Shown piece after piece: positions 6,165 through 60,501 of a stretch of 64,000 nucleotides of DNA; within the stretch, counting starts at the first letter, position 1; the number at the start of each line of letters is the position of its first letter. Source of the stretch: an uncultured Candidatus Saccharibacteria bacterium. GTDB lineage: Bacteria; Patescibacteriota; Minisyncoccia; 2-02-FULL-40-12. The notes under the pieces were generated by a model. It had not been told where the DNA came from and searched no databases. It worked only from the letters and a program-made list of their open reading frames with translations. Location: the NCBI GenBank assembly GCA_964368135.1, contig CAYIZI010000001.1, forward strand, positions 42,926-106,925, in the 5' to 3' direction. The position numbers and the translations under genes were made by a program.

Positions 6165-7441
6165 TAAAGTTCAATATATCCCTTTATGATATTGTCTTCA
6201 ATCAGTTCATTCATTTTCTCGCGGCCCAAATACTCAATAAAAATCTTGTTCCAAAGCGCTTCCTCTTGATGGTATAAATATTTAACTTCTTCTTTTTTGA
6301 CCAAAGTCATTACCAAATCAATCAAATCAAAACTAACCAGCTCATCACCGAAAAAGTCGCCGACAAAATCCAGTTCTTTCCATAAAAAACCAGAACCAAG
6401 TTTGCCTAAGCTTTCCTCGGCTTTAAACCAATGCTCTGCCTCCGGATTAACATGCGGTTCAAAAAGCCGGAAATCATTTTCGTCATCCTTAGCTAAATAT
6501 CTTTGAACAATTCGCCAATTTAATTTTCCCTTATCCGACAAAGGCCCTTCTAAAATATCTCCGCGAAGAAGCGATTTTAACCTCCCAACGAAATCTGACC
6601 CTGTTGAAAAACGCCTGAATAATTTTGAGTAAAACGGAACTTCGTTAAGATAATGGAGAAGTAAAGTAAAGATTCTTAAGATTTCGCCGGGCGTATCCAG
6701 TTTAAGAGGAATTATAAAAATTATTCCGAGTTCTTTAAGATGGCTCACATTATGATATTTCTTTTCCAGAAACTTTCCTACCCCGTAGGGTCGCGAAGCG
6801 ACTCCTTCGGGGTCGGCCACGCCCAACCACTTCTCTTCCAAAACCTTTAATTGTATCGGCCGTTCTTCAAAATCTTCGGGCTTTAAATTATCGTAGGCCT
6901 CGTCAAAAAACTTGTGCATCCACTCGGTATTTTGGGTGAATCGCAAAGCCGCAAAAACCGATTCAAGGGATTCTTTGTCTATCAGTTCGCGAACATCTTT
7001 ATAGCCGAAAAAATCCAAAAGATTCTGCGGCGGATATTCCCCCAGGAGTTCAACTGCCTTATCTTTCTTTATAAAAAAGCCGGCTGTGCCCTCCGAAGCT
7101 TTAGCGAAGGAGGGTTCTTTTACTAAATTAACAGCTACTTCACACATCTTGCCGCAAACCATAGAAATTTTACTTAAATCCGGCCTATCTAAAATCTCAA
7201 AAAGCTCTTTATCTAAATGAATGAGTCTTGCCTGCAAAGCATCGCGGACTTTCTTCGCCCCGGCCTCTTTTGATAAACCCAATTCATCCAAAGTCCGATT
7301 AACCAATAAATCATTCTCCTCAACGATTTTCTCAATCACCCCCCTTTTCCCGGTAATTGAAGACATTTTTTGTTCCAAATCCAAAAGCACCTCCGGCCTT
7401 ACTCGTAAAATTTTTGCTAATCGATTAAACGGATCAAGCAT
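6164..7441 (-). CDS. Conserved hypothetical protein (425 aa), translationally coupled to fba
   Basis: Long clean ORF with no family recognised by eye; its stop overlaps the fba start at 6164. Confidence 0.4.
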   Translation of the reverse strand: MLDPFNRLAKILRVRPEVLLDLEQKMSSITGKRGVIEKIVEENDLLVNRTLDELGLSKEAGAKKVRDALQARLIHLDKELFEILDRPDLSKISMVCGKMCEVAVNLVKEPSFAKASEGTAGFFIKKDKAVELLGEYPPQNLLDFFGYKDVRELIDKESLESVFAALRFTQNTEWMHKFFDEAYDNLKPEDFEERPIQLKVLEEKWLGVADPEGVASRPYGVGKFLEKKYHNVSHLKELGIIFIIPLKLDTPGEILRIFTLLLHYLNEVPFYSKLFRRFSTGSDFVGRLKSLLRGDILEGPLSDKGKLNWRIVQRYLAKDDENDFRLFEPHVNPEAEHWFKAEESLGKLGSGFLWKELDFVGDFFGDELVSFDLIDLVMTLVKKEEVKYLYHQEEALWNKIFIEYLGREKMNELIEDNIIKGYIEL

Positions 7442-13006: not shown

Positions 13007-14404
13007 ATGAAAAGGTACCTGCTGATAATCCTGGCTCTAAGTATTGCGACTCATTTCGCTTTTTTCGGCTATCCGCCAGAAACGGTCTTTGACGAAGTTC
13101 ACTTTGGGAAGTTTGTTTCCGGCTACTTTACCGGCGAATACTATTTTGACATTCATCCGCCGCTGGGAAAACTTATCATTGCCGGCATGGCTAAAATTTC
13201 GGGCTTTGAGCCGGGCTTTTCTTTTGAAACCATCGGCCAGGAATACCAGGATAACTCTTATAAATGGTTAAGATTTTTACCAAAACTTGCCGGTAGCCTA
13301 TTACCGGCAATTGCTTTCTTAATCGCATTGGAGTTAGGCATCAGCCAGAAATTCGCCTTTCTGGCCGGACTGCTGATTGTTTTTGAAAACTCATTACTTG
13401 TTCAGTCGCGTCTTATTCTACTTGACTCTTTTCTGCTTCTTTTTGGATTTTTAGGAATCCTTTTTTATCTTAAATTTAGAAAAACCGACGATCTAAAACC
13501 TAAAACCTATCCGGCTATCTGGCTTTTTCTTGCTGGTTTCTTCGCCGCCTTAGCCGCCTCAATAAAATGGACTGGCCTTGGCTTTCTGGCTTTAATGGGG
13601 ATTTTTTATTTTATCAATTTACTCAAATCCCCAGTAGCAGAACCTCGCAGACTCGGCTCACTACGGGGCACGGCAGAAGAAAAGTTAAAACTGGCACTTA
13701 AGGGCCTGGTGTTTTTAATAGTCATACCGTTTATGATTTACTTTTTAATTTTCGCTGTTCATTTTACCTTCCTTGATAAACCAGGGCCAGGTCTTGCCTT
13801 CCATCCGCCTAATTTTCAGGAAGATAATATTTTTAAAAAATTTGTTGAACTGAATACTGAACTTTATGCAAGCAATGCCCGGCTTACCGCCACTCATCCC
13901 TATTCCAGCCAGTGGTATGAGTGGCCGCTTATGATTCGCTCGGTTTTTTACTGGCAAGGAGACAACGAACGCATCTATCTTTTAGGCAATCCGCTGATTT
14001 ACTGGCTCTCAACAGTTGCCGTGATTTATTTTTTAGTTAACTTTTTCAAAAATAGAAAAAATTTCAGTTATTCGTCCCGATTCGCTTCCAGCGAATCGAG
14101 GATCCTCGATTTTCGTTTACGAAAATCGGGATTATTAGTTATCGGTTATTTGTTAAACTTATTGCCTTTCATCTTCATCGGCCGGGTGATGTTTCTGTAC
14201 CATTACTTCATCTCCCTGATTTTCGCGGTTTTAATTACGGCTTATTCACTGGATAAACTTGATTTTGAGCATAAAAAAACTGCCTTCAATGCAATTTTAG
14301 CTGGTTCAGTAGTTTTGTTTCTATTTTTCTCGCCATTGACTTACGGCTTCTCGATTCCAGAATGGTATTATAAGCTTTTAGTCTGGTTACCTTCTTGGAG
14401 ATAA
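13007..14404 (+). CDS. Dolichyl/polyprenyl-phosphate-mannose-protein mannosyltransferase family (PMT, GT39-like GT-C)
   Basis: DEVHFGKF and YFDIHPPLGKL PMT motifs, ~11 TM helices; start set at ATG 13007 (MKRYLL), preceded by tatatattat. Confidence 0.7.
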   Translation: MKRYLLIILALSIATHFAFFGYPPETVFDEVHFGKFVSGYFTGEYYFDIHPPLGKLIIAGMAKISGFEPGFSFETIGQEYQDNSYKWLRFLPKLAGSLLPAIAFLIALELGISQKFAFLAGLLIVFENSLLVQSRLILLDSFLLLFGFLGILFYLKFRKTDDLKPKTYPAIWLFLAGFFAALAASIKWTGLGFLALMGIFYFINLLKSPVAEPRRLGSLRGTAEEKLKLALKGLVFLIVIPFMIYFLIFAVHFTFLDKPGPGLAFHPPNFQEDNIFKKFVELNTELYASNARLTATHPYSSQWYEWPLMIRSVFYWQGDNERIYLLGNPLIYWLSTVAVIYFLVNFFKNRKNFSYSSRFASSESRILDFRLRKSGLLVIGYLLNLLPFIFIGRVMFLYHYFISLIFAVLITAYSLDKLDFEHKKTAFNAILAGSVVLFLFFSPLTYGFSIPEWYYKLLVWLPSWR

Positions 14405-14411
14405 AAAAAGA

Positions 14412-14441
14412 GCCTCGTTTCTCCTTGCGAAGAAACGGGGC
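14412..14441. terminator. Stem-loop right after the PMT stop; reads as an intrinsic terminator for the minus-strand glutaredoxin gene
   Basis: gcctcgtttct-N8-agaaacggggc (one mismatch); on the minus strand followed by the T-run 14403-14410. Confidence 0.4.
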
Positions 14442-14606
14442 TGGCGAATCACCTGATATAAAGAAGTTCCTTAGTGGAAATAATAGTACTAAACCTCAAT
14501 TTTTCTTAATTTAATGTTGATTTTTACCATTACTGTCCACTAAGCAACCTCCCCTTTTCCCCTGATAATGCCATTATAACACAGCTATATTTGTTGTCAA
14601 GTTTTG

Positions 14607-16055: not shown

Positions 16056-16813
16056 TCAAAGATTAATGAGCTTCTGGGCCAGCTTTCTCACCCCCTCTTT
16101 CCACAGAGCCGGTTCGGTCGTGTCAATGTCAGCCAGAAGATAAGCCGGCGGTTTTTTCAAAATCCACTTGCCGCCGCCTTCTCTGGACCAGCGATAATGG
16201 TGCGGCGTTCTCCGCCACATCTCCTTGAATTTAATCACTGCTCCTTTCTGCTGTCCCTTGCCTTCTTTCCAGGTGCTCTTTGCACCGCCGAAGAAATCTT
16301 CAGACGAATCTTCGTAAGAGGCTGAGAGCATTCGGCCCAACATCACTTCTGGATCAGTATAGGTTCGGATAAAGAAGAGTTCTGCTCCGGCCTTGGCGAC
16401 TTTTGCTTTCAAGCTGGCTCTTTTTTTCTCATCAGCAAAGTCAGCATCAAAAATGACATTGCCGCCCCGTTTCAAGATTTCAAGAGATACATTTTCGGCA
16501 ATCTGCCGGACATAGAGATACTTCTCGCCGACTTTTCGAAGCTGGACCCTGATCGCATCTCCTTCAATTACCACGCCGCCGATCCTCAAGCCAGCTCTTT
16601 GGCCACCGAGCTCTTGCCCGAACCGACAAGTCCCAAAAGAGCAACAACAACCCTGTTTTTGGTCTTGCGTTTGACAGGCCCAATATCAGACTGAACCTTG
16701 TTGATGAAGGCTTCTTGGGCCTTTTTTGCTTTAGCAGAGAGGGTTTCTTTCCTATGAACCATTACCTTCATGATAAAAGGCAGAATGGCCTCGGTCAATC
16801 TTCTAAACATCAC
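16056..16813 (-). pseudogene. AAA_33/zeta-toxin-like P-loop kinase split into two ORFs at a TTGA junction (16586-16589)
   Basis: ORF 16586..16813 ends in Walker A LLGLVGSGKSSVAKELA*; ORF 16056..16589 continues RIGGVVIEGDAIR...NVIFDADFADEKKR; a one-frame shift restores a single ~250-aa kinase. Confidence 0.5.
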
Positions 16814-16936
16814 TCACCTCCGTATACGTATAAAAGTTTAAAACCAACCCAAACGAGCTAATTTAAAAATACCACGAAAAACTAAGAGTGTCAAAAACAA
16901 AAACTGCAAACATGAAACTTTAGCTTAAGGGCCGCA

Positions 16937-17135
16937 GGGTATAGCCAATTTCCGAGAGTTCGGCCGGAGCAGATACAAATAACCGAAGCGAGTAAAAATT
17001 TGCCGGTAACACAAAGTTGGTGGAGGATCCAATTTTGTCGGCAAATTTTAGTGAGTAAATTCTTATTTACGAACAATACTCGCTGAGGATTATTTGTCTG
17101 CGGAGGTTGCTTGAGGAAATTGGCTATACCCGAGA
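16937..17135. repeat. ~200-nt palindromic structured element with perfect 17-bp terminal inverted repeats
   Basis: gggtatagccaatttcc (16937-16953) versus ggaaattggctataccc (17115-17131), each followed by gagag; nested internal stems (cgagta/tactcg; aaaatttgccg/cggcaaatttt; acaaagttgg/ccaattttgt). Confidence 0.6.
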
Positions 17136-17159
17136 GCCCTAATTGGATGTTTGCGGTTT

Positions 17160-19856
17160 TTAGTGCCTCATTTGCTCCTTAATCCTCACCTTGAAATTTT
17201 TATCGTAATCAATCTCAATGGCGCTGCCCCGCTCCGGTTCTTCTTTTAAAAGCAATTCCGAAATTCTATTCTCAATCTGCCGCTGAATCACCCGGCGAAG
17301 TTCCCTGGCCCCAAAATGCGGGTCATAACCCTCTTCAGCTAATTTTTTAATCGCTTGAGACGAAATATTTAGATTATAGCCGAGCATCTTCAGTTTCTCG
17401 GTCAGCTTTTCCAGCTGAAGAACAACAATCTTTTGAATCTGTTCTTTCTCAAGCGATTTAAAGACAATCACTTCGTCAAAACGATTCAAAAACTCAGGCC
17501 GGAAATAGGTCCTTAAATTGTTTACCAAAAGCTCGCGCAAAGATTCATAGCCCATTCGGTCGCTGTCGGACTTATCAAATTCGCGGTGAATTATATCAGA
17601 ACCGACATTAGAAGTGGCGATAATAATGGTGTTTGAAAAATCAACCTTGCGGCCCTGGCCGTCAGTCAAACGGCCGTCTTCCAAAACCTGAAGCAGAATA
17701 TTAAAAACATCGGGGTGGGCTTTTTCAATTTCATCCAGTAAAATTATTGAATGCGGACGGCGGCGGACAATTTCTGTCAGCTGTCCCCCTTCTTCGTAGC
17801 CGACATATCCGGGCGGCGCGCCGATTAAACGGGAAACATTGTGCTTTTCCATATATTCAGACATATCCAGGCGGGCCATTGCATTTTCATCGCCAAAAAG
17901 CACATTAGCCAAAGTCCGAACCATTTCGGTTTTGCCGACACCGGTCGGCCCAAGAAACAAAAACGAAGCAATCGGCCGGTGAACATCGCCCAATCCGGCC
18001 CGGCCCCGCCTGATTGCTTCAGCCACAGCCTTAACCGCCTCTTCCTGGTCAATTAACCGTTCGTGAATCCTATTTTCCAGATTCAGCAGCTTCTCCTTTT
18101 CGGCCTGGGTCAATTGAGTCACCGGAACTCCGGTCAGCTTAGAGACCACTTCCGCCACATTTTCAAAGGTAACTTCTGGGATAATCTTCGCTTTTTTATT
18201 TTCCCAGGTGTCAAGCTTCTCGGCTCTTTCTTTTTCCAATTCAACAAGTTCCTTTTCAATCAGCGACACTTTTTTGCTTTTAGAATGCTTGGCCGCATCA
18301 AGCTCTTTTTTCAGGCCGCGAATTTTTTCTTCAATTCTTTTCAGCTCATCCGGCTCGGTAGTGAACTTAATCCTGACTCGCGAGGCGGCCTGGTCAATTA
18401 AATCAATAGCTTTGTCCGGCAAGAAGCGGCCGGTGATGTAGCGATGCGAAAGTTCGGCCGCGCCGACAATGGCTTCATCAGAAATCTTAACCCGGTGATG
18501 CGACTCATAGCGGTCGCGTAAACCATGCAATATCTCCACGGTTTCGCCAACTGTCGGCTCACTGACATAAATCGGTTGGAAGCGACGCTCCAGAGCCGCA
18601 TCTTTCTCAATGTGCTTTTGGTACTCTTTCAAAGTGGTGGCGCCGACAATATGAAGCTCGCCCCGAGCCAAAGCCGGCTTAAACATATTAGCCGCGTCCA
18701 TTGCCCCGCCTTCAGCCCGGCCAGCACCGACAAGTAAATGCAATTCATCAATAAAAACAATCAACTTGTTGGAATTGGCAACTATTTCTTCCAAAACTGA
18801 CTTTAGCCGCTCTTCAAACTGGCCGCGAAACTGGGTGCCGGCTAAGATGCCGGACAAATCTAATTCAACCACTCTTTTACCTTGCAAGGGCTCGGGCACA
18901 TTTCCAGAAACGATTCTTTGGGCGAGCCCTTCAATAATGGCTGTTTTACCGACTCCGGGCTCGCCGATTAAAACCGGGTTGTTCTTGGTTCGGCGGGCCA
19001 AAACTTCAATTGCCGTTTCAATCTCTTTGTGCCGGCCAATAACCGGGTCTAACTTCCCTATTCTGGCAAGTTGGGTAAGGTCGCGGGAAAACTGATCCAA
19101 AGCAGGGGTCTGCATCATCGGAATAAAACCTTCTTTGGCTCCCCGGCCCACCGCCTTAACCACCGCGTTCCTTAGTTTCTCGTAATCAAGCTTTTGTTTC
19201 TTTAAAACACGAGCACCCAAACCCTCACCCTCCTGCATCAAAGCCAAAAGCAGATGTTCTGGACCGACATAGTTGTGGTGTAAATTTTGGGCTTCAGGCA
19301 AAGCAATATCCAGAATTCTTTTCATTCGCGGTGAAAACTCTAACTCGTCTTCAGCAGTCCCGCCCTTTTGAATACTTTTTTCAAGATTAGACCTGACTTC
19401 TGTTTCCGAAATTCTTAAATTATTCAAAATCTTTTTGATGACCTGGTCATTTATCAAAGCCAAAAGCAGGTGCTCGGTGTCAACTTCCGAACTGCCGAAA
19501 GCTTGAGCCTGACCGCCGGCCTCTCCTAAAATGTGCTTGGCTGATTCGGAAAGGTAATCCTGGACGTCAACTCTTTCCTGAACTCTTGGCTCGGCCTGAA
19601 ATATGTCGCCGAAAAAATCGCCGAAAATATCGTCGCCAAAAATACTGCCAAACCCAAACGGATCGCGCGGATCGCGGCCGCGACCGCTTGGTTTTTTAGG
19701 GCTATCTCCTTGCCCTGAACCTGCTGAACCGCCAAAACTAAAACTCACTCCTTTGGCAGAGCACTGGTCACAAACATTGGTCACCGACTGGACCCCATTA
19801 ACTATCTTAACCACTCGCCGTGTAGCAGAATTTTTCTTGCAAATATCACAGAGCAT
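17160..19856 (-). CDS. clpC: Clp ATPase of the ClpC/ClpE type (N-terminal zinc ribbon, Gly/Phe-rich linker, Clp-N, two AAA+ modules)
   Basis: C-x2-C...C-x2-C N-terminus, Walker A GEPGVGKTAI (D1) and GPTGVGKTEM (D2), coiled-coil M domain, tripeptide MGY at the ClpP-docking (LGF/IGF) loop position. Confidence 0.8.
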   Translation of the reverse strand: MLCDICKKNSATRRVVKIVNGVQSVTNVCDQCSAKGVSFSFGGSAGSGQGDSPKKPSGRGRDPRDPFGFGSIFGDDIFGDFFGDIFQAEPRVQERVDVQDYLSESAKHILGEAGGQAQAFGSSEVDTEHLLLALINDQVIKKILNNLRISETEVRSNLEKSIQKGGTAEDELEFSPRMKRILDIALPEAQNLHHNYVGPEHLLLALMQEGEGLGARVLKKQKLDYEKLRNAVVKAVGRGAKEGFIPMMQTPALDQFSRDLTQLARIGKLDPVIGRHKEIETAIEVLARRTKNNPVLIGEPGVGKTAIIEGLAQRIVSGNVPEPLQGKRVVELDLSGILAGTQFRGQFEERLKSVLEEIVANSNKLIVFIDELHLLVGAGRAEGGAMDAANMFKPALARGELHIVGATTLKEYQKHIEKDAALERRFQPIYVSEPTVGETVEILHGLRDRYESHHRVKISDEAIVGAAELSHRYITGRFLPDKAIDLIDQAASRVRIKFTTEPDELKRIEEKIRGLKKELDAAKHSKSKKVSLIEKELVELEKERAEKLDTWENKKAKIIPEVTFENVAEVVSKLTGVPVTQLTQAEKEKLLNLENRIHERLIDQEEAVKAVAEAIRRGRAGLGDVHRPIASFLFLGPTGVGKTEMVRTLANVLFGDENAMARLDMSEYMEKHNVSRLIGAPPGYVGYEEGGQLTEIVRRRPHSIILLDEIEKAHPDVFNILLQVLEDGRLTDGQGRKVDFSNTIIIATSNVGSDIIHREFDKSDSDRMGYESLRELLVNNLRTYFRPEFLNRFDEVIVFKSLEKEQIQKIVVLQLEKLTEKLKMLGYNLNISSQAIKKLAEEGYDPHFGARELRRVIQRQIENRISELLLKEEPERGSAIEIDYDKNFKVRIKEQMRH

Positions 19857-21143: not shown

Positions 21144-21914
21144 TTATTTTTTCCCGAATAAACTCAATAAAAATATGCCGACGCCAATTAAAATAATAAT
21201 CGGGCCAGGCGGCAAGCCATATGTTCTGGCGATCATTAAACCGGACGGTGCGGTCAATAAACCAAAAATAGTACTCAAAGAAGCATATCTTCCAATACTG
21301 CGGCTTAAATTTTTAGCGGCCGTGGCTGAAACTATTATTAAAGCACCCATTAGTAGTGTGCCGACAACCTTTACTCCCAAAGCCACCACGGCCGAGACCA
21401 AAACCAAAAACAATAAGTTAATTTTCCTCAACTTCACGCCATTGGCAATGGCCAAATCCTCGGAAATAGTTCCCAAAACCAGGCCTCTGTAAATTTTAGC
21501 CCCGATAGTAAACACGGCAGCTGAAAGTAAAATCGCCAGCGCGGTATCAAAAAAATCAATTTCGGAAATATCGCCGAAAAGCGCCTCACCAAGCTCTTCC
21601 AAATCAGGAATAAGCATTACGCCAATGGCCAGCGAAGCGACAAAGAAAATACCGATTAAGGCCTCGGTTGGAATTCTGGTCCTGCCTTCAAGCAGCCAAA
21701 TCAGCCACGAGGCGGCAAAGAGAAACACAAAAGCCAGCAAAAACGGATTAAGATTAAAAAGCAAGGCAAGGCCGATACCGGGCAAAGCGACATGGCTTAA
21801 AACATCGCCGGCCAAAGCCAGCCGCCTCAAAACCATTATTGAGCCAAGATATCCGGCGGCCGCGCCGACCACTCCGGCGGTGATTAGCGAAAAAAGTAAA
21901 TTTTGGTCAATCAT
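21144..21914 (-). CDS. ABC-3 family metal (Zn/Mn) transporter permease
   Basis: ZnuB/MntB-like polytopic protein; start trimmed to the ATG at 21914, overlapping the ATPase stop (ATGA). Confidence 0.75.
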   Translation of the reverse strand: MIDQNLLFSLITAGVVGAAAGYLGSIMVLRRLALAGDVLSHVALPGIGLALLFNLNPFLLAFVFLFAASWLIWLLEGRTRIPTEALIGIFFVASLAIGVMLIPDLEELGEALFGDISEIDFFDTALAILLSAAVFTIGAKIYRGLVLGTISEDLAIANGVKLRKINLLFLVLVSAVVALGVKVVGTLLMGALIIVSATAAKNLSRSIGRYASLSTIFGLLTAPSGLMIARTYGLPPGPIIILIGVGIFLLSLFGKK

Positions 21915-22669
21915 ATACGTTTGTGAGTATGCGGATAAATTCCAACTTCTGTTCCATAAAGTTTTTTTAACTCCTCCCTGCTTAACGCCTCCTGGGGAGG
22001 ACCAAAACAAACTTTTTCCTTGTTGATGCACAAAACGCTGGAGGCCTGTTCATAAACAACATGAATGTCATGGGAAATAAAAATTATAGTCAAATCATGC
22101 TCGTCTCTTAACTTACGAAGGAGATTGTAAATCGTTTCTTCACCGCCGATATCTACTCCGGTGGTTGGCTCATCAAAAAGCAAAACTTTTGGATTACCCA
22201 AAAGAGCAAAAGCAATTAAAACCTTCTGAAGCTCACCGCCAGACAGCACCCCAAGTGGCTGGTTTAAAATGTGATGGACTAAGTGGTGCTCATCATGGGT
22301 ACCTGCCCCGTAGCTCGCCGCAGGCGATGGTTCGGGGTGAAAACCGACCCATTTTAAAACCTCGGCTACTTTACTCTTGCCGGCTTTTTTATAGTTCAAA
22401 AACTCTTTGACACTCAAAGGCAGATCGCGTTCAACAATGAAACGCTGGGGCACGTAGCCGACTTTAATATTTTTATACCAAAGGAACTTTCCTGAATAAG
22501 GCACCAGGCCCAGCAAAGTCCGGAATAAAACCGTCTTCCCGGCGCCGTTTGGTCCGACCACGGCCATGATGTCGCCTTTCTTGACTTCAAAACTCAAATC
22601 GCTGATAACTTTATCGCCGTTAAACTGAACATTCAGGTTCTCCACTTTGAGGATTAAATCGTTGGGCAT
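21911..22669 (-). CDS. ABC transporter ATP-binding protein (ZnuC/MntA-like) with a His-rich insert
   Basis: Walker A GPNGAGKT, signature LSGGELQKV, Walker B LLFDEPTTGVD; insert GTHDEHHLVHH. Confidence 0.8.
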   Translation of the reverse strand: MPNDLILKVENLNVQFNGDKVISDLSFEVKKGDIMAVVGPNGAGKTVLFRTLLGLVPYSGKFLWYKNIKVGYVPQRFIVERDLPLSVKEFLNYKKAGKSKVAEVLKWVGFHPEPSPAASYGAGTHDEHHLVHHILNQPLGVLSGGELQKVLIAFALLGNPKVLLFDEPTTGVDIGGEETIYNLLRKLRDEHDLTIIFISHDIHVVYEQASSVLCINKEKVCFGPPQEALSREELKKLYGTEVGIYPHTHKRI

Positions 22670-22691
22670 CGGTTTTAATGATAACAGATTG

Positions 22692-22751
22692 CTCGGGTAT
22701 AGCCAATTTCTTTTCTGACTTTTTTAGACAAATAATCCTCAGAGAGTATCC
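22692..22751 (+). repeat. Partial second copy of the bipartite conserved motif found in the 16937-17135 element
   Basis: ctcgggtatagccaatttc (22692-22710) and agacaaataatcctcag (22726-22742) match the reverse complement of 17116-17134 and 17083-17099 with the same ~15-16-nt spacer. Confidence 0.55.
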
Positions 22752-22831
22752 GGTTTTCGTTTTTTAAAAATTTTATTGACAAATACCTTAAATTATTTTA
22801 CTCTTTCCAAAGCTCAAAAGGAGGTGTAGTA

Positions 22832-23437
22832 ATGGAACCAAAGGAAGAAATAGCCAAAAAGTTGCTGGAAAGACGGATTTTAGTGATGACCGGCGAAATA
22901 ACCAAAGAGAAAGTTGATGAAGTGAGGAGTGGCCTGATATGGCTGAATGCCCTCTCCAATGACGAAATCAAACTGATCATTGACACAAAAGGAGGTGAAT
23001 GTGAGCCTGGGTTTTGGTTGGTAGATTTCGTCCAGATGCTTAGTGCTCCTGTTATAGGTATAGTGAACGGGGAATGTTACTCAATAGGCATCGCCATTCT
23101 CCAAGGATGCCGCAAGAGGCTGGCGACGCCCCATAGCTGGTTCCAAGTTCATTTCACCGGTGGCACCTTCAGGTACGCTCCCCGCGACGAGAAAAGAGAA
23201 AAGAAGTTTGAAATCAGATTGACACAGAGCCAAAAAGTCCAGGAACAGATGCTCCAACTTCTTTCCTCCAGAACCGGCAAAACTCCGAAGGAAATAATCG
23301 CTCTCTGTGAAAAAGGAGAGAAGTACGATTGGAGGTTTTCGGCCTCCGAAGCAAAGGAGCTGGGATTCGTTGACAAGGTAGTGGAAAAGTTCGAGTTATT
23401 TCCTGCTCCACCTTTGACAACACCGCCAACGCCTTAG
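22832..23437 (+). CDS. ClpP-family serine protease, divergent (no N-terminal axial-loop segment)
   Basis: Ser-His-Asp candidates in GECYSIGIA, WFQVHFTGG, LGFVDKV; ClpP core pattern LLERRILVMTGEI...; SD aaaggagg upstream. Confidence 0.6.
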   Translation: MEPKEEIAKKLLERRILVMTGEITKEKVDEVRSGLIWLNALSNDEIKLIIDTKGGECEPGFWLVDFVQMLSAPVIGIVNGECYSIGIAILQGCRKRLATPHSWFQVHFTGGTFRYAPRDEKREKKFEIRLTQSQKVQEQMLQLLSSRTGKTPKEIIALCEKGEKYDWRFSASEAKELGFVDKVVEKFELFPAPPLTTPPTP

Positions 23438-23459: not shown

Positions 23460-23717
23460 TTATTTATACAAATTCGGGTGAGTATCTAAAGCAATAAAGT
23501 ATGCAGTATTATCATCAACTAACTCATAAACCGCTCGATAATTTCCGGTAATATTAATACTGCGACAGCCTTTATACTTTCCAGTGAGTCCGTGATTATT
23601 CAAAATTGGATCAAACGGGTCTTTCGAAAATAAAACAAGTCGTTCATCGACTTTTTTCTGAATAGCTCGTAGTTTCTTAAACTTCTTCTTAAAATTTTGG
23701 TGAAAAAGAATTTTCAC
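23460..23717 (-). CDS. Type II toxin, RelE/YafQ-family mRNA interferase
   Basis: 85 aa; LTGKYKGCRSINITGNYRAVYELVDDNTAYFIALDTH is a typical YafQ/RelE C-terminal pattern. Confidence 0.7.
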   Translation of the reverse strand: MKILFHQNFKKKFKKLRAIQKKVDERLVLFSKDPFDPILNNHGLTGKYKGCRSINITGNYRAVYELVDDNTAYFIALDTHPNLYK

Positions 23718-24017
23718 TTACGAATGCAGGTAATCAAAGGCTTCTTCAATAGAATCAAAAACAGGAGAAATATTCTTCTTGGCTTTATAATCTTTTCTGG
23801 CCTGACCAATAAGCTTTTCTAATTCCGGAGTCATTTTAGGCATAACTGAAAAGTAAAGTCTTCGGCTTCTAATAAACTGTTTAAGGTTTGCATTTATAAT
23901 TGTACTTAAATTAAGACCTAATTCTTTGGCTAATTTTTGAGCATTCTCTTTAACTTCCTTATCTGCTTTTATATTGATCATCGTCTTCATCCCGTTAGAA
24001 ATTTTACAGACCGTCAA
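23718..24017 (-). CDS. Type II antitoxin, DinJ/RelB family
   Basis: MINIKADKEVKENAQKLAKELGLNLSTIINANLKQ RHH-type antitoxin; abuts the toxin gene; the true start may be an internal Met (MKTMINIK). Confidence 0.65.
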   Translation of the reverse strand: MTVCKISNGMKTMINIKADKEVKENAQKLAKELGLNLSTIINANLKQFIRSRRLYFSVMPKMTPELEKLIGQARKDYKAKKNISPVFDSIEEAFDYLHS

Positions 24018-58583: not shown

Positions 58584-58614
58584 GAACATAATAAATTCAG
58601 AAAAGGTGCGGGGT
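58584..58614 (+). repeat. 31-nt repeat copy A (gaacataataaattcagaaaaggtgcggggt), overlapping the 3' end of the DedA-like gene
   Basis: Identical to 59430-59460. Confidence 0.7.
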
Positions 58615-59181
58615 GTATAGGCCAATAAACGCAGCCAGGGTGTTAAAAACGATATTGCCTAAAGTCATCGGAATCATCAGCCGCCAGTAAGGATAGTGAA
58701 TAAAACCAAGGGGCATGACCACCAAATCATCAGGCAGAGGGATAAAAGCGCCGTAGCTGAAAATGGCCAGACTGGCCAGCCACTTGGGATGAGACAAAGA
58801 CCATTCATAAGCCCGGTCAATGGTTTTTTGAATTCTTGAAGGGATAATTTCCCGGCCATGATATGCAATAACATAAGAAGTTGAATCACCCAAGAAAAGG
58901 CCGATGCCGGCCACAAAACCCAAAAGAAATGGGTTTAACCCGCCGGCGGCAAAAGTCATCACAAAGAGATAATAAGGAATCGGAACAAAGGTTGAGATGC
59001 CGCCCAAGAAAGCCAAAACAAAGGTAATCAAATAGCCGTTTCGGACGCCCAGAATCTCAATAATGTCAGCCGGCGGAATCCGGTAAATAAAAACTGTCCA
59101 GGCGACAAAAAGAGCAATCAGGATTAAAAAAGGAAATTGGGCTTTACTAACTATCCCCCGCACCTTTTCTGAATAGGTCAA
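58597..59181 (-). CDS. DedA/VTT-domain family membrane protein (YqaA-like)
   Basis: GLFLGDSTSYVIAYHG DedA-type motif, 5-6 TM; both its TTG start region and its last codons are encoded by copies of the 31-nt repeat. Confidence 0.55.
   Translation of the reverse strand: MTYSEKVRGIVSKAQFPFLILIALFVAWTVFIYRIPPADIIEILGVRNGYLITFVLAFLGGISTFVPIPYYLFVMTFAAGGLNPFLLGFVAGIGLFLGDSTSYVIAYHGREIIPSRIQKTIDRAYEWSLSHPKWLASLAIFSYGAFIPLPDDLVVMPLGFIHYPYWRLMIPMTLGNIVFNTLAAFIGLYTPHLF
59155..59174 (-). repeat. Inverted partial copy B of the 31-nt repeat (ccccgcaccttttctgaat), at the GIY-YIG stop / DedA start
   Basis: Reverse complement matches attcagaaaaggtgcgggg of copies A and C (19-20 nt). Confidence 0.6.
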
Positions 59182-59435
59182 GACGACAAACTGCCGAGTA
59201 TTCTTCTCTTAAGCTGAGAATATACTTTACCGAACTGTTTCAGTTTTTTCTCACGGTTTCTGACGTCTTGACCGTTTAGATAACCTTCACAATAAACTAA
59301 CTTCCAAGGAATGAAAGCTTTAGTCGACCGATTATATCCTAAATTATGTTCTCTTATCCTTTTTAAAATATTAGTTGTTATGCCAATATATAATTTCTTG
59401 TTTTTATCGCTTTTCAATAAATAGACATAGAACAT
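59178..59435 (-). CDS. Small GIY-YIG nuclease-family protein (COG2827/YhbQ-like)
   Basis: MFYVYLLKSDKNKKLYIGITTNILKRIREHNLGYNRSTKAFIPWKLVYCE; 85 aa; the N-terminal 110 codons of the tracked ORF overlap the upstream gene out of frame and were trimmed. Confidence 0.7.
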   Translation of the reverse strand: MFYVYLLKSDKNKKLYIGITTNILKRIREHNLGYNRSTKAFIPWKLVYCEGYLNGQDVRNREKKLKQFGKVYSQLKRRILGSLSS

Positions 59436-59460
59436 AATAAATTCAGAAAAGGTGCGGGGT
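59430..59460 (+). repeat. 31-nt repeat copy C, between the membrane-protein stop (59464) and the GIY-YIG start (59435)
   Basis: Identical to 58584-58614. Confidence 0.7.
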
Positions 59461-59463
59461 TCA

Positions 59464-60501
59464 CTATTTGTTTTGATTCTTGAAAGACGGATAGCGGTCT
59501 GGGTCAATGGTTCGGCTGAAGCAAGTTCTTTCAGCGTCATGGAGCCAGCTTTCTTCAGTAATGCCAGGGTAAGGATAATAAAGCTCGCGGGGGGCCAAAG
59601 GCACTGGTTTTGCTCCGCTCTTTTCCGGCTCCTGCTTGTTTGAGGTCTTAAAAGTGGCGCAAAGCTCAAACTGCAAAGTACCGCGAACTCGGTATTCATA
59701 CGAGTCCCCTGTTTCCGGGTCAGCCGGCGGGATGAAGCCACGGATATCGTCGCGAAGCTGATCAAGATTTTGAGGCAATGTTTCTTTGGCCTGCCAAAAG
59801 TTTATAATTTCATTCTGAATCGCCTGTAGATCCGAAATTCTCCGCTCATCAAATCTCTTCAAGCGCTGGGCAATTGGCGAACCGGCCGTAACAAAGCCGA
59901 TGACGATGAAAAAAATGCCAGCCAGGGAAACCAACCAAACGAACCATCTCATTTTCGGGTCTTTAGCGGCCGGAACTTTCCGCCGGATATTCCACAAGTA
60001 ATAGGTAAACACCGCTAAAGCAATAACCAGAACGGTCAAAATCTTAAGCACAAATTGAGTGGTTAAATCTCCATTAAGATAGCGATAAATAAGAGCGATT
60101 AAATCAGCGACAATAATGATGGCGGCAACAAAAAGCGTAAAATGCAAAAGCCATTTCCTGACTTTTAATTCTTTTTTCTCGGGATTCCGTTCAAGGTCTT
60201 TCTGAAGATAGGAGTTATACCAAAGATACAAAGGGAAAACCACGATCAGGGTAGCCAAAGGCCATCTGATGGCCTGGCGGTTATAAAAATCGTAGCTTAA
60301 AACATCGGGGAAATATATATCAATCAAACCGAAAATTAAAACACCAAAAGAAATTACCAGGACATAAAGGCCGATAATGACCAAGAGTTGGCCAAACACG
60401 TCTTTGCTCGTCGAAGGTTCCGCCCCCGACGTAAGTCGGGGTTGCGGAATCGCTGTCGGCCCGGTTTTTGCAGAATCAGTCATTGTTTTAAATTCTACCA
60501 A
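59464..60501 (-). CDS. Hypothetical polytopic membrane protein
   Basis: 345 aa with ~6 TM helices and a C-terminal soluble domain; no family recognised. Confidence 0.45.
   Translation of the reverse strand: MVEFKTMTDSAKTGPTAIPQPRLTSGAEPSTSKDVFGQLLVIIGLYVLVISFGVLIFGLIDIYFPDVLSYDFYNRQAIRWPLATLIVVFPLYLWYNSYLQKDLERNPEKKELKVRKWLLHFTLFVAAIIIVADLIALIYRYLNGDLTTQFVLKILTVLVIALAVFTYYLWNIRRKVPAAKDPKMRWFVWLVSLAGIFFIVIGFVTAGSPIAQRLKRFDERRISDLQAIQNEIINFWQAKETLPQNLDQLRDDIRGFIPPADPETGDSYEYRVRGTLQFELCATFKTSNKQEPEKSGAKPVPLAPRELYYPYPGITEESWLHDAERTCFSRTIDPDRYPSFKNQNK

What the first reader, a model, noticed from the sequence alone, without database searches (positions are those of the whole stretch)
16937..17135. 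~200-nt highly structured palindromic element with 17-bp perfect terminal inverted repeats; partial copy near the clpP-like gene
GGGTATAGCCAATTTCC at 16937-16953 pairs perfectly with 17115-17131, and each arm is followed by GAGAG. Nested perfect or near-perfect stems lie inside (cgagta/tactcg, aaaatttgccg/cggcaaatttt, acaaagttgg/ccaattttgt with a G-U pair, guaaau/auuuac), giving an elongated rod-like RNA or DNA structure. Its right-hand ~52 nt form a bipartite motif (box 1 CTCGGGTATAGCCAATTTC, 15-16-nt variable spacer, box 2 AGACAAATAATCCTCAG). That motif recurs at 22692-22742, ~90 nt upstream of the ClpP-like gene. Copy 1 lies immediately downstream of the clpC-like gene and ~300 nt upstream of the split kinase. 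Candidates are a MITE-like mobile repeat, a 6S-like or other structured ncRNA, or a regulatory element shared by Clp-associated loci. A 61-aa ORF across it is probably spurious.
Basis: seen in the sequence. Interest (0 to 1): 0.6.

Follow-up and report, generated by a model that had tools for sequence, protein, structure and literature searches.

The report
Palindromic repeat element in groundwater Patescibacteria
The 200-nt hairpin after the clpC gene is one copy of an undescribed family of non-coding, hairpin-forming repeats scattered between genes in a group of tiny groundwater bacteria; it is selfish-DNA-like and is neither a Clp regulator nor a 6S RNA.

Summary
Window 16937-17131 has 17-bp perfect terminal inverted repeats and folds into a branched rod (RNA MFE -107 kcal/mol, z = -13). 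It matches no Rfam family.

It is not unique. A 99%-identical copy lies in unrelated DNA of another Hainich groundwater MAG. nhmmer finds 24 copies or fragments in 192 kb of related Patescibacteria loci and none in 906 kb of unrelated control DNA.

The family has at least four or five different cores wrapped in one shared terminal module. Copies nest inside each other, leave truncated relics, and are present or absent at orthologous sites. Stems are kept by compensatory changes. All 21 copies fold better on the same strand (G·T 97 vs A·C 42). All are intergenic, and the same end usually lies within 65 nt of a neighbouring gene.

The "partial copy near clpP" is a 5'-truncated relic. It faces the ABC-transporter operon on the other strand and abuts that operon's ancestral extended -10 promoter.

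Best reading: a new REPIN/MITE-like repeat family. The window copy sits inside a terminator-like stem after clpC. I found no target-site duplication and no mobilising enzyme, so the way it moves is unknown. A strand-specific RNA role is not excluded.

The parts
16937..17131 (+). Full-length A-type element, bounded by its terminal inverted repeats. The + strand is the family's better-folding 'sense' strand, 5'-GGGUAUAGCC...GGCUAUACCC-3'.
   Evidence: The same unit is 99% identical (199 nt) to L015 1473-1671, which lies in unrelated flanking DNA.
16937..16953 (+). Left terminal inverted repeat, the 5' arm of stem P1 (GGGTATAGCCAATTTCC).
   Evidence: P1 pairing is kept by compensatory changes across copies.
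17115..17131 (+). Right terminal inverted repeat, the 3' arm of stem P1 (GGAAATTGGCTATACCC).
16928..16936 (+). 5' half of outer stem P0 (AGGGCC) plus the conserved internal-loop bases GCA. In most other copies P0 is AAAGCC.
17132..17140 (+). Conserved internal-loop bases GAGA plus the 3' half of outer stem P0 (GCCCT).
17011..17038 (+). Apical hairpin: stem ACAAAGTTGG/CCAATTTTGT with loop TGGAGGAT. The GGAGG-containing loop is kept in most A and B cores (one B copy differs) while the stem covaries.
   Evidence: A 35-nt apical module is shared by the A and B copies in L135.
17055..17070 (+). Side hairpin GTAAAT-TCTT-ATTTAC on the 3' arm only. It makes the rod Y-shaped.
   Evidence: Compensatory changes occur in other A copies (pairs 140/153 and 143/150).
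16899..16913 (.). Distal arm of the outermost stem that encloses the element. On the - strand (the clpC mRNA sense) it reads ATGTTTGCAGTTTTT and is followed by GTTTTTG, which looks like an intrinsic terminator.
   Evidence: (I2). That it acts as a terminator is inferred, not shown.
17147..17161 (.). Proximal arm of the outermost stem. It overlaps the clpC stop codon (17160-17162). Its start, AAACCGCAAACA, is also found right after clpC in L137.
22688..22765 (-). 5'-truncated relic of an A-type element; only about the last 75 nt of the sense strand remain. It contains box 1 (22692-22710) and box 2 (22726-22742). Its 3' end faces the ABC operon.
   Evidence: The same relic is at the orthologous site in L120. 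L137 and L140 have a full C-type copy at that site instead.
22678..22706 (-). Promoter-like site: TTGGCT (-35, inside the relic), a 17-nt spacer, then TG-n-TATCAT (-10, in the flank). The ATG at 22669 follows 8 nt later, which suggests a leaderless-type start.
   Evidence: The motif AATCTGY-TATCAT/TATTAT-7/8 nt-ATG is conserved in most of the genomes compared (degenerate in L142), with or without an element. The -10 is therefore ancestral, and the relic contributes only the -35-like hexamer.

Best explanation
Window 16937-17131, together with its outer stems out to 16899-17161, is a full-length member of an undescribed family of non-coding, nested-palindrome repeat elements. The elements are about 150-290 bp long and populate the intergenic regions of a clade of groundwater Patescibacteria (Parcubacteria-like CPR bacteria).

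All members share a terminal module. It consists of an outer stem P0, a purine-rich internal loop (CGCA/GAGA or GCGA/GAGC), and a stem P1 that is 16-17 bp long in the A-type copies and forms the terminal inverted repeats. This module wraps interchangeable cores, of which I saw at least A, B, C, D and E.

I read the family as selfish, non-autonomous DNA of the REPIN/MITE kind. It spreads or is copied between intergenic sites, nests into itself, decays into relics, and is kept as a hairpin.

Shown here: the multi-copy dispersed distribution, presence or absence at orthologous sites, nesting, compensatory maintenance of stems, a consistent strand asymmetry, and a consistent polarity toward neighbouring genes.

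Inferred: in the window the element lies in the loop of a terminator-like stem directly after clpC (an A-tract, then stem ...CCGCAAACAT / ATGTTTGCAG..., then a T-tract). It probably acts as part of a bidirectional transcription terminator or 3'-end stabiliser, between clpC and the promoter of the next gene at 16894-16866.

The second copy (22688-22765) is a truncated relic. It abuts the ancestral extended -10 promoter of the ABC-transporter operon and places a TTGGCT hexamer at -35 spacing.

The enzyme or process that moves the elements is unknown.
For: Distribution
- A 99%-identical copy lies in unrelated flanks (L015 1473-1671, another MAG of the CAYH series, the same series as a MAG whose contig matches a Hainich assembly contig).
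- nhmmer with 10 family queries gives 24 hits in 192 kb of related CPR loci and 0 in 906 kb of unrelated loci.
- Copies occur in several independent metagenomes and MAGs: Hainich replicates, Ga0213870, ERZ27245926, GCA_007376425 and GCA_016204105.

Family architecture
- Several cores share one set of termini, and copies nest. One copy carries a 50-nt foreign palindrome, and two have an outer P1 wrapped around another element.

Presence or absence at orthologous sites
- clpC abuts grx directly in L134, L139 and L140, and abuts DUF763 in L141 and L142.
- Only the window, L133 (a different core) and L137 (a decayed copy) have an element there.
- The site upstream of the ABC operon holds an A-type relic (window, L120), a C-type copy (L137, L140) or nothing (L134, L142).

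Structure is maintained
- Pairs changed on both sides: 13 of 68 (A), 17 of 78 (B) and 8 of 40 (C).
- Controls for B: 17 observed against 7.7 in shuffles (0/500) and 1-5 when the partners are slid. For C: 8 against 3.0 (0/500) and 0-2.

Not a known RNA and not coding
- There is no Rfam hit for any core, while RNase P was found in L129 as a positive control.
- The 61-aa ORF has no homologue, and indels between copies break its frame.

Position and polarity
- All 21 copies are intergenic. In 18 of 21 the sense 3' end lies within 65 nt of a neighbouring ORF boundary. Five back-to-back pairs have their 5' ends facing each other.

Terminator-like setting
- The window's outer stem has A and T tracts. 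In at least 7 copies P0 reads AAAGCC...GGCTTT followed by T-rich sequence.
Against: - No target-site duplication. The flanks are inverted complements (P0), not direct repeats. The apparent 7-nt repeat around L015a is explained by the conserved terminal bases GCGA/GAGC.
- No transposase, RAYT or any multi-copy protein was found in the 192 kb I could inspect. Mobility is therefore inferred from distribution alone.
- The G·U strand asymmetry (21 of 21 copies; 97 vs 42) and the conserved loops are not predicted by a purely selfish-DNA model. They hint at an RNA-level or single-strand role.
- The better-folding strand is the complement of the mRNA of the adjacent upstream gene. That fits poorly with a simple role as a 3'-UTR hairpin for that gene.
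- The terminator role is untested. An automated tally of flanking A and T tracts was noisy and inconclusive.
- The window genome itself carries only 1.3 copies in 64 kb.
Confidence: 0.62

Rival explanations
1. The elements are genes, or transcribed modules, for a family of structured RNAs made from the 'sense' strand (the + strand in the window). The RNA rod is the functional product, for example a scaffold or decoy, or a terminator/insulator that stops transcription running toward the adjacent gene. The repeat-like spread would then be secondary.
For: - All 21 copies fold better on the same strand, by 7-27 kcal/mol.
- An unbiased count gives G·T 97 vs A·C 42, in the same direction in all five cores.
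- The asymmetry is large with RNA parameters (-107 vs -86) and small with DNA parameters (-59 vs -53).
- Some G·U pairs are kept in all copies, and compensatory changes are strong.
- Unpaired motifs are conserved: the GGAGG apical loop (in most A and B copies) and the CGCA/GAGA loop.
- Core C is branched rather than a plain palindrome.
- A few copies are preceded by -10-like boxes on the sense strand: L129 TGTCATAAT, L131 TGTATAAT and L135 TATAAT.
Against: - No promoter-like site lies upstream on the + strand in the window.
- Promoter-scan counts around other copies are at the level expected from shuffles.
- Truncated relics, nesting, interchangeable cores and presence/absence at orthologous sites are typical of repeats, not of RNA genes.
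- There is no Rfam family.
- Copies share ancestry within each core, so the 21 of 21 count is not 21 independent events.
Confidence: 0.2
2. The hairpins act as folded single-stranded DNA sites for a strand-specific recombinase or transposase. Analogues are REP/REPIN with a RAYT, the ends of IS200/IS605, or the bottom strand of an integron attC. This would explain the missing target-site duplication, the fixed polarity and the strand asymmetry.
For: - No target-site duplication.
- Conserved termini and a conserved internal loop with possible non-Watson-Crick bases.
- Fixed polarity relative to neighbouring genes.
- Repeated occupation of the same sites by different cores: after clpC and upstream of the ABC operon.
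- The clpC-grx junction is a variable gene islet.
Against: - No Y1 or tyrosine recombinase gene was seen in the inspected loci.
- The islet genes are not each followed by a hairpin, so there is no cassette array.
- The termini do not resemble attC R sites, and no REP-like GTAG signature is evident; both are judged by eye against consensus sequences from my own knowledge.
- With DNA energy parameters the strand asymmetry is only about 6 kcal/mol.
Confidence: 0.12
3. It is a regulatory operator or RNA shared by Clp-protease loci, or the organism's 6S RNA.
For: Two copies in the window lie near clpC and clpP. The rod-like fold is about 200 nt long.
Against: - Other copies flank unrelated genes.
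- The second copy faces the ABC operon.
- Syntenic relatives have clpC without the element, and one relative lacks clpP at that site.
- There is no CtsR-like operator.
- There is no 6S hit in Rfam even at E<=10, no central bubble, and the element is multi-copy.
Confidence: 0.02

Closest known systems
REPINs (REP doublets forming hairpins, mobilised by RAYT transposases). Described from my own knowledge of Bertels & Rainey 2011.
   Same: Non-coding extragenic hairpin-forming repeats with no target-site duplication. They are multi-copy with subfamilies, often lie next to gene ends, and keep their stem pairing.
   Different: - These elements are 150-290 bp, against roughly 100 bp for REPINs.
- They have branched or nested cores.
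- No REP-like 5' GTAG signature is evident by eye.
- No RAYT gene was found.
- No sequence relationship to REPINs is known.
Bacterial MITEs such as the Neisseria Correia element (CREE/NEMIS). Features taken from the review PMC10969869.
   Same: About 100-300 bp with terminal inverted repeats and no ORF. They are intergenic, their transcripts fold into stable stem-loops, and they carry outward promoter-like hexamers. They may act in termination or RNA processing.
   Different: - No direct-repeat target duplication here.
- No cognate IS element found.
- The terminal inverted repeats are part of a longer covarying rod.
- Orientation is strongly polar and the fold is strand-asymmetric.
- The host phylum differs: the review never mentions Patescibacteria (0 occurrences).
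Pneumococcal BOX, RUP and SPRITE repeats (PMC3049150; summarised in PMC10969869).
   Same: Modular elements with conserved end modules and variable middles. They cluster and insert into one another, and SPRITE is terminator-like.
   Different: There is no sequence similarity, the hosts are different, and the modules here are nested palindromes rather than a linear A-B-C order.
Integron attC sites (from my own knowledge).
   Same: Imperfect palindromes directly after a gene, with conserved ends and a variable centre. Structure is conserved rather than sequence, one strand folds better, and they sit in a variable gene region.
   Different: There are no RYYYAAC/GTTRRRY core sites, no integrase, no hairpin after each islet gene, and the elements are about twice as long.
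6S RNA (Rfam RF00013 and related models).
   Same: About 200 nt with an overall rod-like fold.
   Different: There is no central bubble, no Rfam hit at E<=10, many copies per genome, and interchangeable cores.

Membership tests
MITE | Small (about 50-500 bp), non-coding, with no transposase gene | tested here: met
   The unit is 195 bp. The only ORF (61 aa) has no homologue, and indels between copies break its frame.
MITE | Terminal inverted repeats | tested here: met
   17-bp perfect terminal inverted repeats in the window copy. The same termini occur in other copies.
MITE | Flanking direct repeats (target-site duplication), at least in young copies | tested here: not met
   The flanks of 9 canonical copies are inverted complements, not direct repeats. 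The youngest pair (window and L015a, 99% identical) shows no convincing duplication.
MITE | Multiple dispersed copies, mostly intergenic | tested here: met
   24 copies or fragments in 192 kb of related loci, all intergenic, and 0 in 906 kb of controls.
MITE | A cognate autonomous IS element with matching terminal repeats that can mobilise it | tested here: inconclusive
   None was found in the loci held: no multi-copy protein and no transposase domains in the annotated flanks. Whole genomes could not be searched.
REP / REPIN | Extragenic palindromic repeat whose hairpin is maintained, without target duplication | tested here: met
REP / REPIN | Conserved 5' GTAG tetranucleotide and a short (20-40 nt) REP unit | tested here: not met
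   The termini read (C)GCA/GCGA-GGGTATAGCC. The units are 150-290 nt. The GTAG criterion is from my own knowledge.
REP / REPIN | A RAYT (Y1 transposase) gene in the genome, usually flanked by its REPs | not testable with these tools
   Only fragments of the genomes are held. No such gene was seen in them.
6S RNA | Match to the 6S covariance models | tested here: not met
   No Rfam match at gathering score or at E<=10.
6S RNA | A large central bubble that mimics an open promoter, in a single-copy gene | tested here: not met
   The fold is almost continuously paired with one side branch. The element is multi-copy.
Integron attC | One site after each cassette gene, with an integrase nearby | tested here: not met
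   No further hairpins occur in the clpC-grx islets of L133, L137 or the window. No integrase appears among the annotated neighbours.
Intrinsic (bidirectional) terminator | A stem-loop closed next to a T-tract on the transcribed strand, with an A-tract upstream | tested here: inconclusive
   The window copy is enclosed by AAAAACCGCAAACAT...ATGTTTGCAGTTTTT-GTTTTTG on the clpC-sense strand. P0 reads AAAGCC...GGCTTT plus T-rich sequence in several copies. An automated tally was noisy, and the consensus scanner cannot score such long hairpins.
Clp/CtsR regulon operator | A CtsR heptad direct repeat, or exclusive association with clp genes | tested here: not met
   No significant CtsR-like site was found. 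Copies lie next to many unrelated genes.

The most novel reading that the evidence does not exclude
The family is not just selfish DNA. It may be a strand-specific structured-RNA module, or a single-strand hairpin site, that CPR bacteria use systematically at gene boundaries. The sense-strand rod has a conserved purine-rich internal loop and, in most A and B copies, a GGAGG apical loop. It would be the functional form, for example a portable insulator or terminator that protects the adjacent gene from incoming transcription, or the binding scaffold of an unknown protein. This reading would account for the 21 of 21 strand asymmetry and for the rule that the 3' end faces the neighbouring gene.
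Probability: 0.15. Interest if true: 0.6.

Novelty: new member of a known kind. Interest (0 to 1): 0.36.

Why it matters
CPR/Patescibacteria genomes are small and streamlined, and they are usually described as poor in repeats. My literature searches found no description of MITE-, REP- or BOX-like families in them.

A nested, modular hairpin family that makes up to about 10% of some contigs, such as L131, would have practical consequences:
- It can break assemblies and binning.
- It can create spurious ORFs or "structured RNA" candidates in scans like this one.
- It marks hotspots of gene-content change, here the clpC-grx junction and the junction upstream of the ABC operon.

The family's consistent strand asymmetry and polarity toward genes are unusual for plain selfish DNA. 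They can be tested directly with the metatranscriptomes that exist for such aquifers.

Tried and rejected
- The genome-contig scan with a 16-mer was too short. About 115 of 118 loci were chance hits, and only L015 and L087 were real. I reused the chance loci as a negative control.
- The metagenome hits L122, L124 and L127 are coding coincidences: the peptide EIGYTR in MetK and FlgG.
- The viral contig L132 matches 20 nt of the terminus, but the match lies inside a packed phage ORF. It is a chance hit and not an autonomous partner.
- Searching the spurious 61-aa ORF as a protein, to find more copies, returned nothing.
- The cluster lookup meant to learn whether the window and L015 belong to one MAG returned no accession.
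- Target-site duplication: the apparent GAGCGAA repeat around L015a is just the conserved terminal bases.
- The idea of nested insertion at the TA of an empty GGGTACCC hairpin was dropped, because no such empty hairpins exist in the loci.
- The idea of an integron-like cassette array was dropped, because the islet genes are not each followed by a hairpin.
- The idea that the relic creates the ABC promoter was weakened. The extended -10 and its spacing to the ATG are ancestral and are also present in L134, which has no element there.
- Hammerhead ribozyme: the CUGAGGA in box 2 resembles CUGANGA, but no ribozyme family matched at E<=10.
- Sense-strand promoters: the scans were at chance level.
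- The automated tally of terminator tracts was too noisy to use.
- The grx-PMT spacer comparison did not give a clean pair of empty and filled sites.

Full report
OBSERVATION

GGGTATAGCCAATTTCC (16937-16953) pairs perfectly with 17115-17131, and both arms are followed by GAGAG. The listed inner stems were recovered independently.

As RNA, 16925-17145 folds into an almost continuously paired, Y-shaped rod. The energy is -107.2 kcal/mol on the + strand (z = -13.0; 0 of 200 shuffles as good) and -85.8 kcal/mol on the - strand (z = -10.8). Pairing extends outward through AGGGCC/GCCCT and then through a 15-nt stem, 16899-16913 / 17147-17161.

Box 1 and box 2 recur exactly at 22692-22710 and 22726-22742.

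No Rfam family matches. This holds for the whole window at gathering score and for 16700-17400 at E<=10.

CONTEXT

The window comes from a 127-kb contig of a 0.1-um-filtered Hainich groundwater metagenome. The closest ClpC proteins, at 80-84% identity, are from MAGs labelled Parcubacteria or Patescibacteria.

The element lies between the stop codon of a clpC-like gene (17160-19856, - strand; Pfam Clp_N, AAA and AAA_2) and a promoter-like site, TTGACA-17-TATTTT, at 16894-16866 on the - strand. That promoter-like site precedes two ORFs (16056-16813). They weakly match the two halves of an AAA_33 P-loop kinase.

IT IS A REPEAT FAMILY

- A public-genome scan found an almost identical copy at L015 1473-1671 (198 of 199 nt). 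It lies upstream of a 1074-aa dnaE-like ORF, in a different MAG of the CAYH series, the same series as a MAG whose contig matches a Hainich assembly contig. Nothing else in that 8-kb locus resembles the window.
- The same locus, and a second contig of that MAG (L087), hold diverged relatives with the same termini but different interiors.
- A 19-mer scan of metagenomes returned 12 loci. Nine are real: five from Hainich replicate R1 and four from JGI sample Ga0213870. Three are coding coincidences.
- BLAST and nhmmer with ten family queries detect 24 copies or fragments in 192 kb of these CPR loci and none in 906 kb of unrelated loci. The unrelated loci serve as a negative control.
- Within the 64-kb window there is only the full copy and the partial one.

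ANATOMY

In the better-folding ("sense") orientation every member reads as follows:
- 5'-(A-rich)-P0 (usually AAAGCC)
- internal-loop bases CGCA or GCGA
- P1 (GGGTATAGCCAATTTC in the A-type copies; shorter or variant forms elsewhere)
- the core
- P1'
- internal-loop bases GAGA or GAGC
- P0'-(T-rich)-3'

At least five cores occur:
- A, about 200 nt. This is the window type.
- B, about 245 nt.
- C, about 165 nt, with two internal hairpins rather than a plain palindrome.
- D, about 265-290 nt.
- E, seen in L133.

A and B share an apical hairpin. Its loop UGGAGG(A/G) is kept in most copies (one B copy differs) while the stem changes, for example CAAAGTTGG/CCAATTTTG against CATAGGG/CCCTATTTG.

Elements nest inside one another. 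One C copy carries a 50-nt foreign palindrome. In L128 and L125 an extra P1-like layer wraps another element.

Truncated "solo" 3' ends are common.

STRUCTURE IS MAINTAINED

RNAalifold finds pairs changed on both sides in 13 of 68 (A), 17 of 78 (B) and 8 of 40 (C) pairs.

With controls, core B shows 17 such pairs, against 7.7 in column shuffles (0/500) and 1-5 when the partners are slid. Core C shows 8, against 3.0 (0/500) and 0-2.

The same alignments show 1-2-nt indels between A copies. Those indels rule out a conserved reading frame. The 61-aa ORF has no homologue among 5.8 billion proteins.

STRAND ASYMMETRY AND POLARITY

All 21 measurable copies fold better on the same strand, by 7-27 kcal/mol.

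For an unbiased test I aligned each copy to its own reverse complement using DNA scores only. That gives 97 G·T-type mismatches against 42 A·C-type, in the same direction in all five cores (A 28:12, B 22:5, C 34:17, D 8:4, E 5:4). Copies within a core share ancestry, so these are not 139 independent events.

With DNA energy parameters the difference for the window copy shrinks to about 6 kcal/mol. The asymmetry therefore matters mainly for RNA.

All copies are intergenic. In 18 of 21 the sense 3' end lies within 65 nt of a neighbouring ORF boundary:
- In 13 it is convergent with that gene's stop codon, as in the window.
- In 5 it lies just upstream of a co-directional start codon.

The 5' ends are 60-630 nt from the next ORF, or they face the 5' end of another copy; there are five such back-to-back pairs (the ORFs are mechanical calls). 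As a result, the mRNA of the adjacent upstream gene would contain the less stable strand.

I found no consistent sigma-70-like promoter for the sense strand. A few copies do have -10-like boxes just upstream.

PRESENCE AND ABSENCE

Ten syntenic clpC loci show the following states:
- clpC followed within 5-7 nt by glutaredoxin: L134, L139 and L140.
- clpC followed by a convergent DUF763 gene: L141 and L142.
- clpC followed by an element plus extra genes including AAA_33: the window (A core), L133 (E core, same orientation, 3 nt after the stop) and L137 (a decayed remnant that shares the window's AAACCGCAAACA start).

The window copy is 99% identical to a copy elsewhere, while its neighbours at this site have diverged. 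Either the site has been re-occupied, or cores are exchanged between resident terminal modules.

The site upstream of the ABC operon behaves the same way. It holds an A-type relic in the window and L120, a full C copy in L137 and L140, and nothing in L134 and L142.

THE "PARTIAL COPY NEAR clpP"

It is the last approximately 75 nt (sense strand) of an A-type element, and it is closest to the L128 variant. Its 3' end points to the ABC-transporter ATPase gene (21911-22669, - strand).

The only promoter-like site in the region is TTGGCT-17 nt-TG-n-TATCAT on the - strand, 8 nt before the ATG.

Aligning six genomes shows that AATCTGY-TATCAT/TATTAT-7/8 nt-ATG is conserved in most of them, including L134, which has no element (it is degenerate in L142). 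The extended -10, leaderless-type promoter is therefore ancestral. The relic ends exactly 7 nt upstream of it and contributes only a -35-like hexamer. It has no specific link to clpP.

In L134, clpP and the adjacent RelE/RelB-like pair are absent from this junction.

WHAT IT MOST LIKELY IS

The distribution, nesting, relics and site polymorphism point to a non-autonomous repeat family of the REPIN/MITE kind. The defining MITE features I used for comparison come from PMC10969869.

Two classic features are missing. There is no target-site duplication: the flanks are inverted complements, that is P0. No mobilising gene was found in the DNA available. I therefore do not file the family as a MITE in the strict sense.

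In the window the element sits in the loop of a stem with an A-tract before it and a T-tract after it, immediately after clpC. That arrangement looks like a bidirectional intrinsic terminator. I infer, but have not shown, that the element takes part in termination or 3'-end protection.

The strand asymmetry and the polarity toward genes remain unexplained by this model. They keep alive an RNA-level or single-strand-DNA role.

RIVALS

- 6S RNA and a Clp-specific operator are effectively excluded.
- An integron-like cassette system is not supported.
- A sense-strand ncRNA family remains possible, at roughly 0.2.
- A single-strand recombination site remains possible, at roughly 0.1.

NOVELTY AND INTEREST

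No description of such repeats in Patescibacteria or CPR bacteria turned up, and no Rfam family covers them.

This is a new family of a well-known kind of element, with some unusual regularities. Interest is moderate, at 0.36.

Noticed in passing
window 59156-59459: 19-bp perfect inverted repeats (CCCCGCACCTTTTCTGAAT / ATTCAGAAAAGGTGCGGGG) flank an 85-aa GIY-YIG nuclease ORF on the - strand (Pfam PF01541, E = 8.8e-15). The unit is wedged between two membrane-protein-like ORFs (58597-59181 and 59464-60501). It looks like a tiny GIY-YIG selfish element bounded by terminal inverted repeats.
   Followed up: partly
window ~14400-14603 (- strand); also L134 7906-8060, L139 3430-3590, L140 5930-6100: A consensus promoter (TTGACA-17-TATAAT) is followed by a conserved ~95-nt hairpin (GGGGAGGUUGCUUAGUGGACAGUAAUGGUA...UACUAUUAUUUCCACUAAGGAAC) and an intrinsic terminator, between the glutaredoxin and PMT genes. 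The hairpin is conserved in four genomes (the promoter was checked in the window and L134 only) and matches no Rfam family. It is a candidate unannotated small RNA gene.
   Followed up: partly
L133 1055-4884; L135 387-3773: A solo Cas1 gene (PF01867) and a 505/530-aa protein with no Pfam hit lie directly upstream of clpC. In L133 this two-gene module is flanked by inverted repeats of about 340-400 bp. It may be a casposon-like, Cas1-solo mobile module in Patescibacteria.
   Followed up: no
window 23460-24017 (- strand) and 22832-23437: A YafQ/RelE-like toxin (85 aa) and a RelB-like antitoxin (99 aa) sit beside the clpP-like gene. In syntenic L134, topA abuts the ABC operon directly, so the clpP-TA block is absent there and looks like an insertion.
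   Followed up: partly
window 16056-16813 (- strand): The 75-aa and 177-aa ORFs weakly match the N- and C-terminal parts of an AAA_33 P-loop kinase. L133 and L137 have intact AAA_33 genes at the same place, so this is probably a frameshifted or split gene.
   Followed up: partly
L120 ~2300-2345, L125 ~6416-6467, L128 ~2584-2629, L129 10122-10188, L131 ~2411-2453: A further conserved motif lies 5' of several family copies: GGRCTTCGCC, in three of the five loci a small covarying hairpin with loop TTCTGA, then GGAATCTTYTAA. It is often preceded by a terminator and T-run, and in L129 by TGTCATAAT. It is absent from the window, and its role is unknown.
   Followed up: partly
L087 ~870-960; L131 within 2156-2369: A second, unrelated small palindromic repeat (GGTCCCGAT...ATCGAGGATCCTCGAT...ATCGGGACC) occurs alone and also nested inside a C-type element. 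These genomes therefore carry more than one hairpin-repeat family.
   Followed up: no
window 22669-22683 and orthologous sites in L120, L134, L137, L140, L142: The ABC-transporter ATPase gene has a -10 box (preceded by TG in all but L142) only 7-8 nt upstream of its ATG and no Shine-Dalgarno sequence. This suggests a leaderless mRNA conserved across these Patescibacteria.
   Followed up: partly
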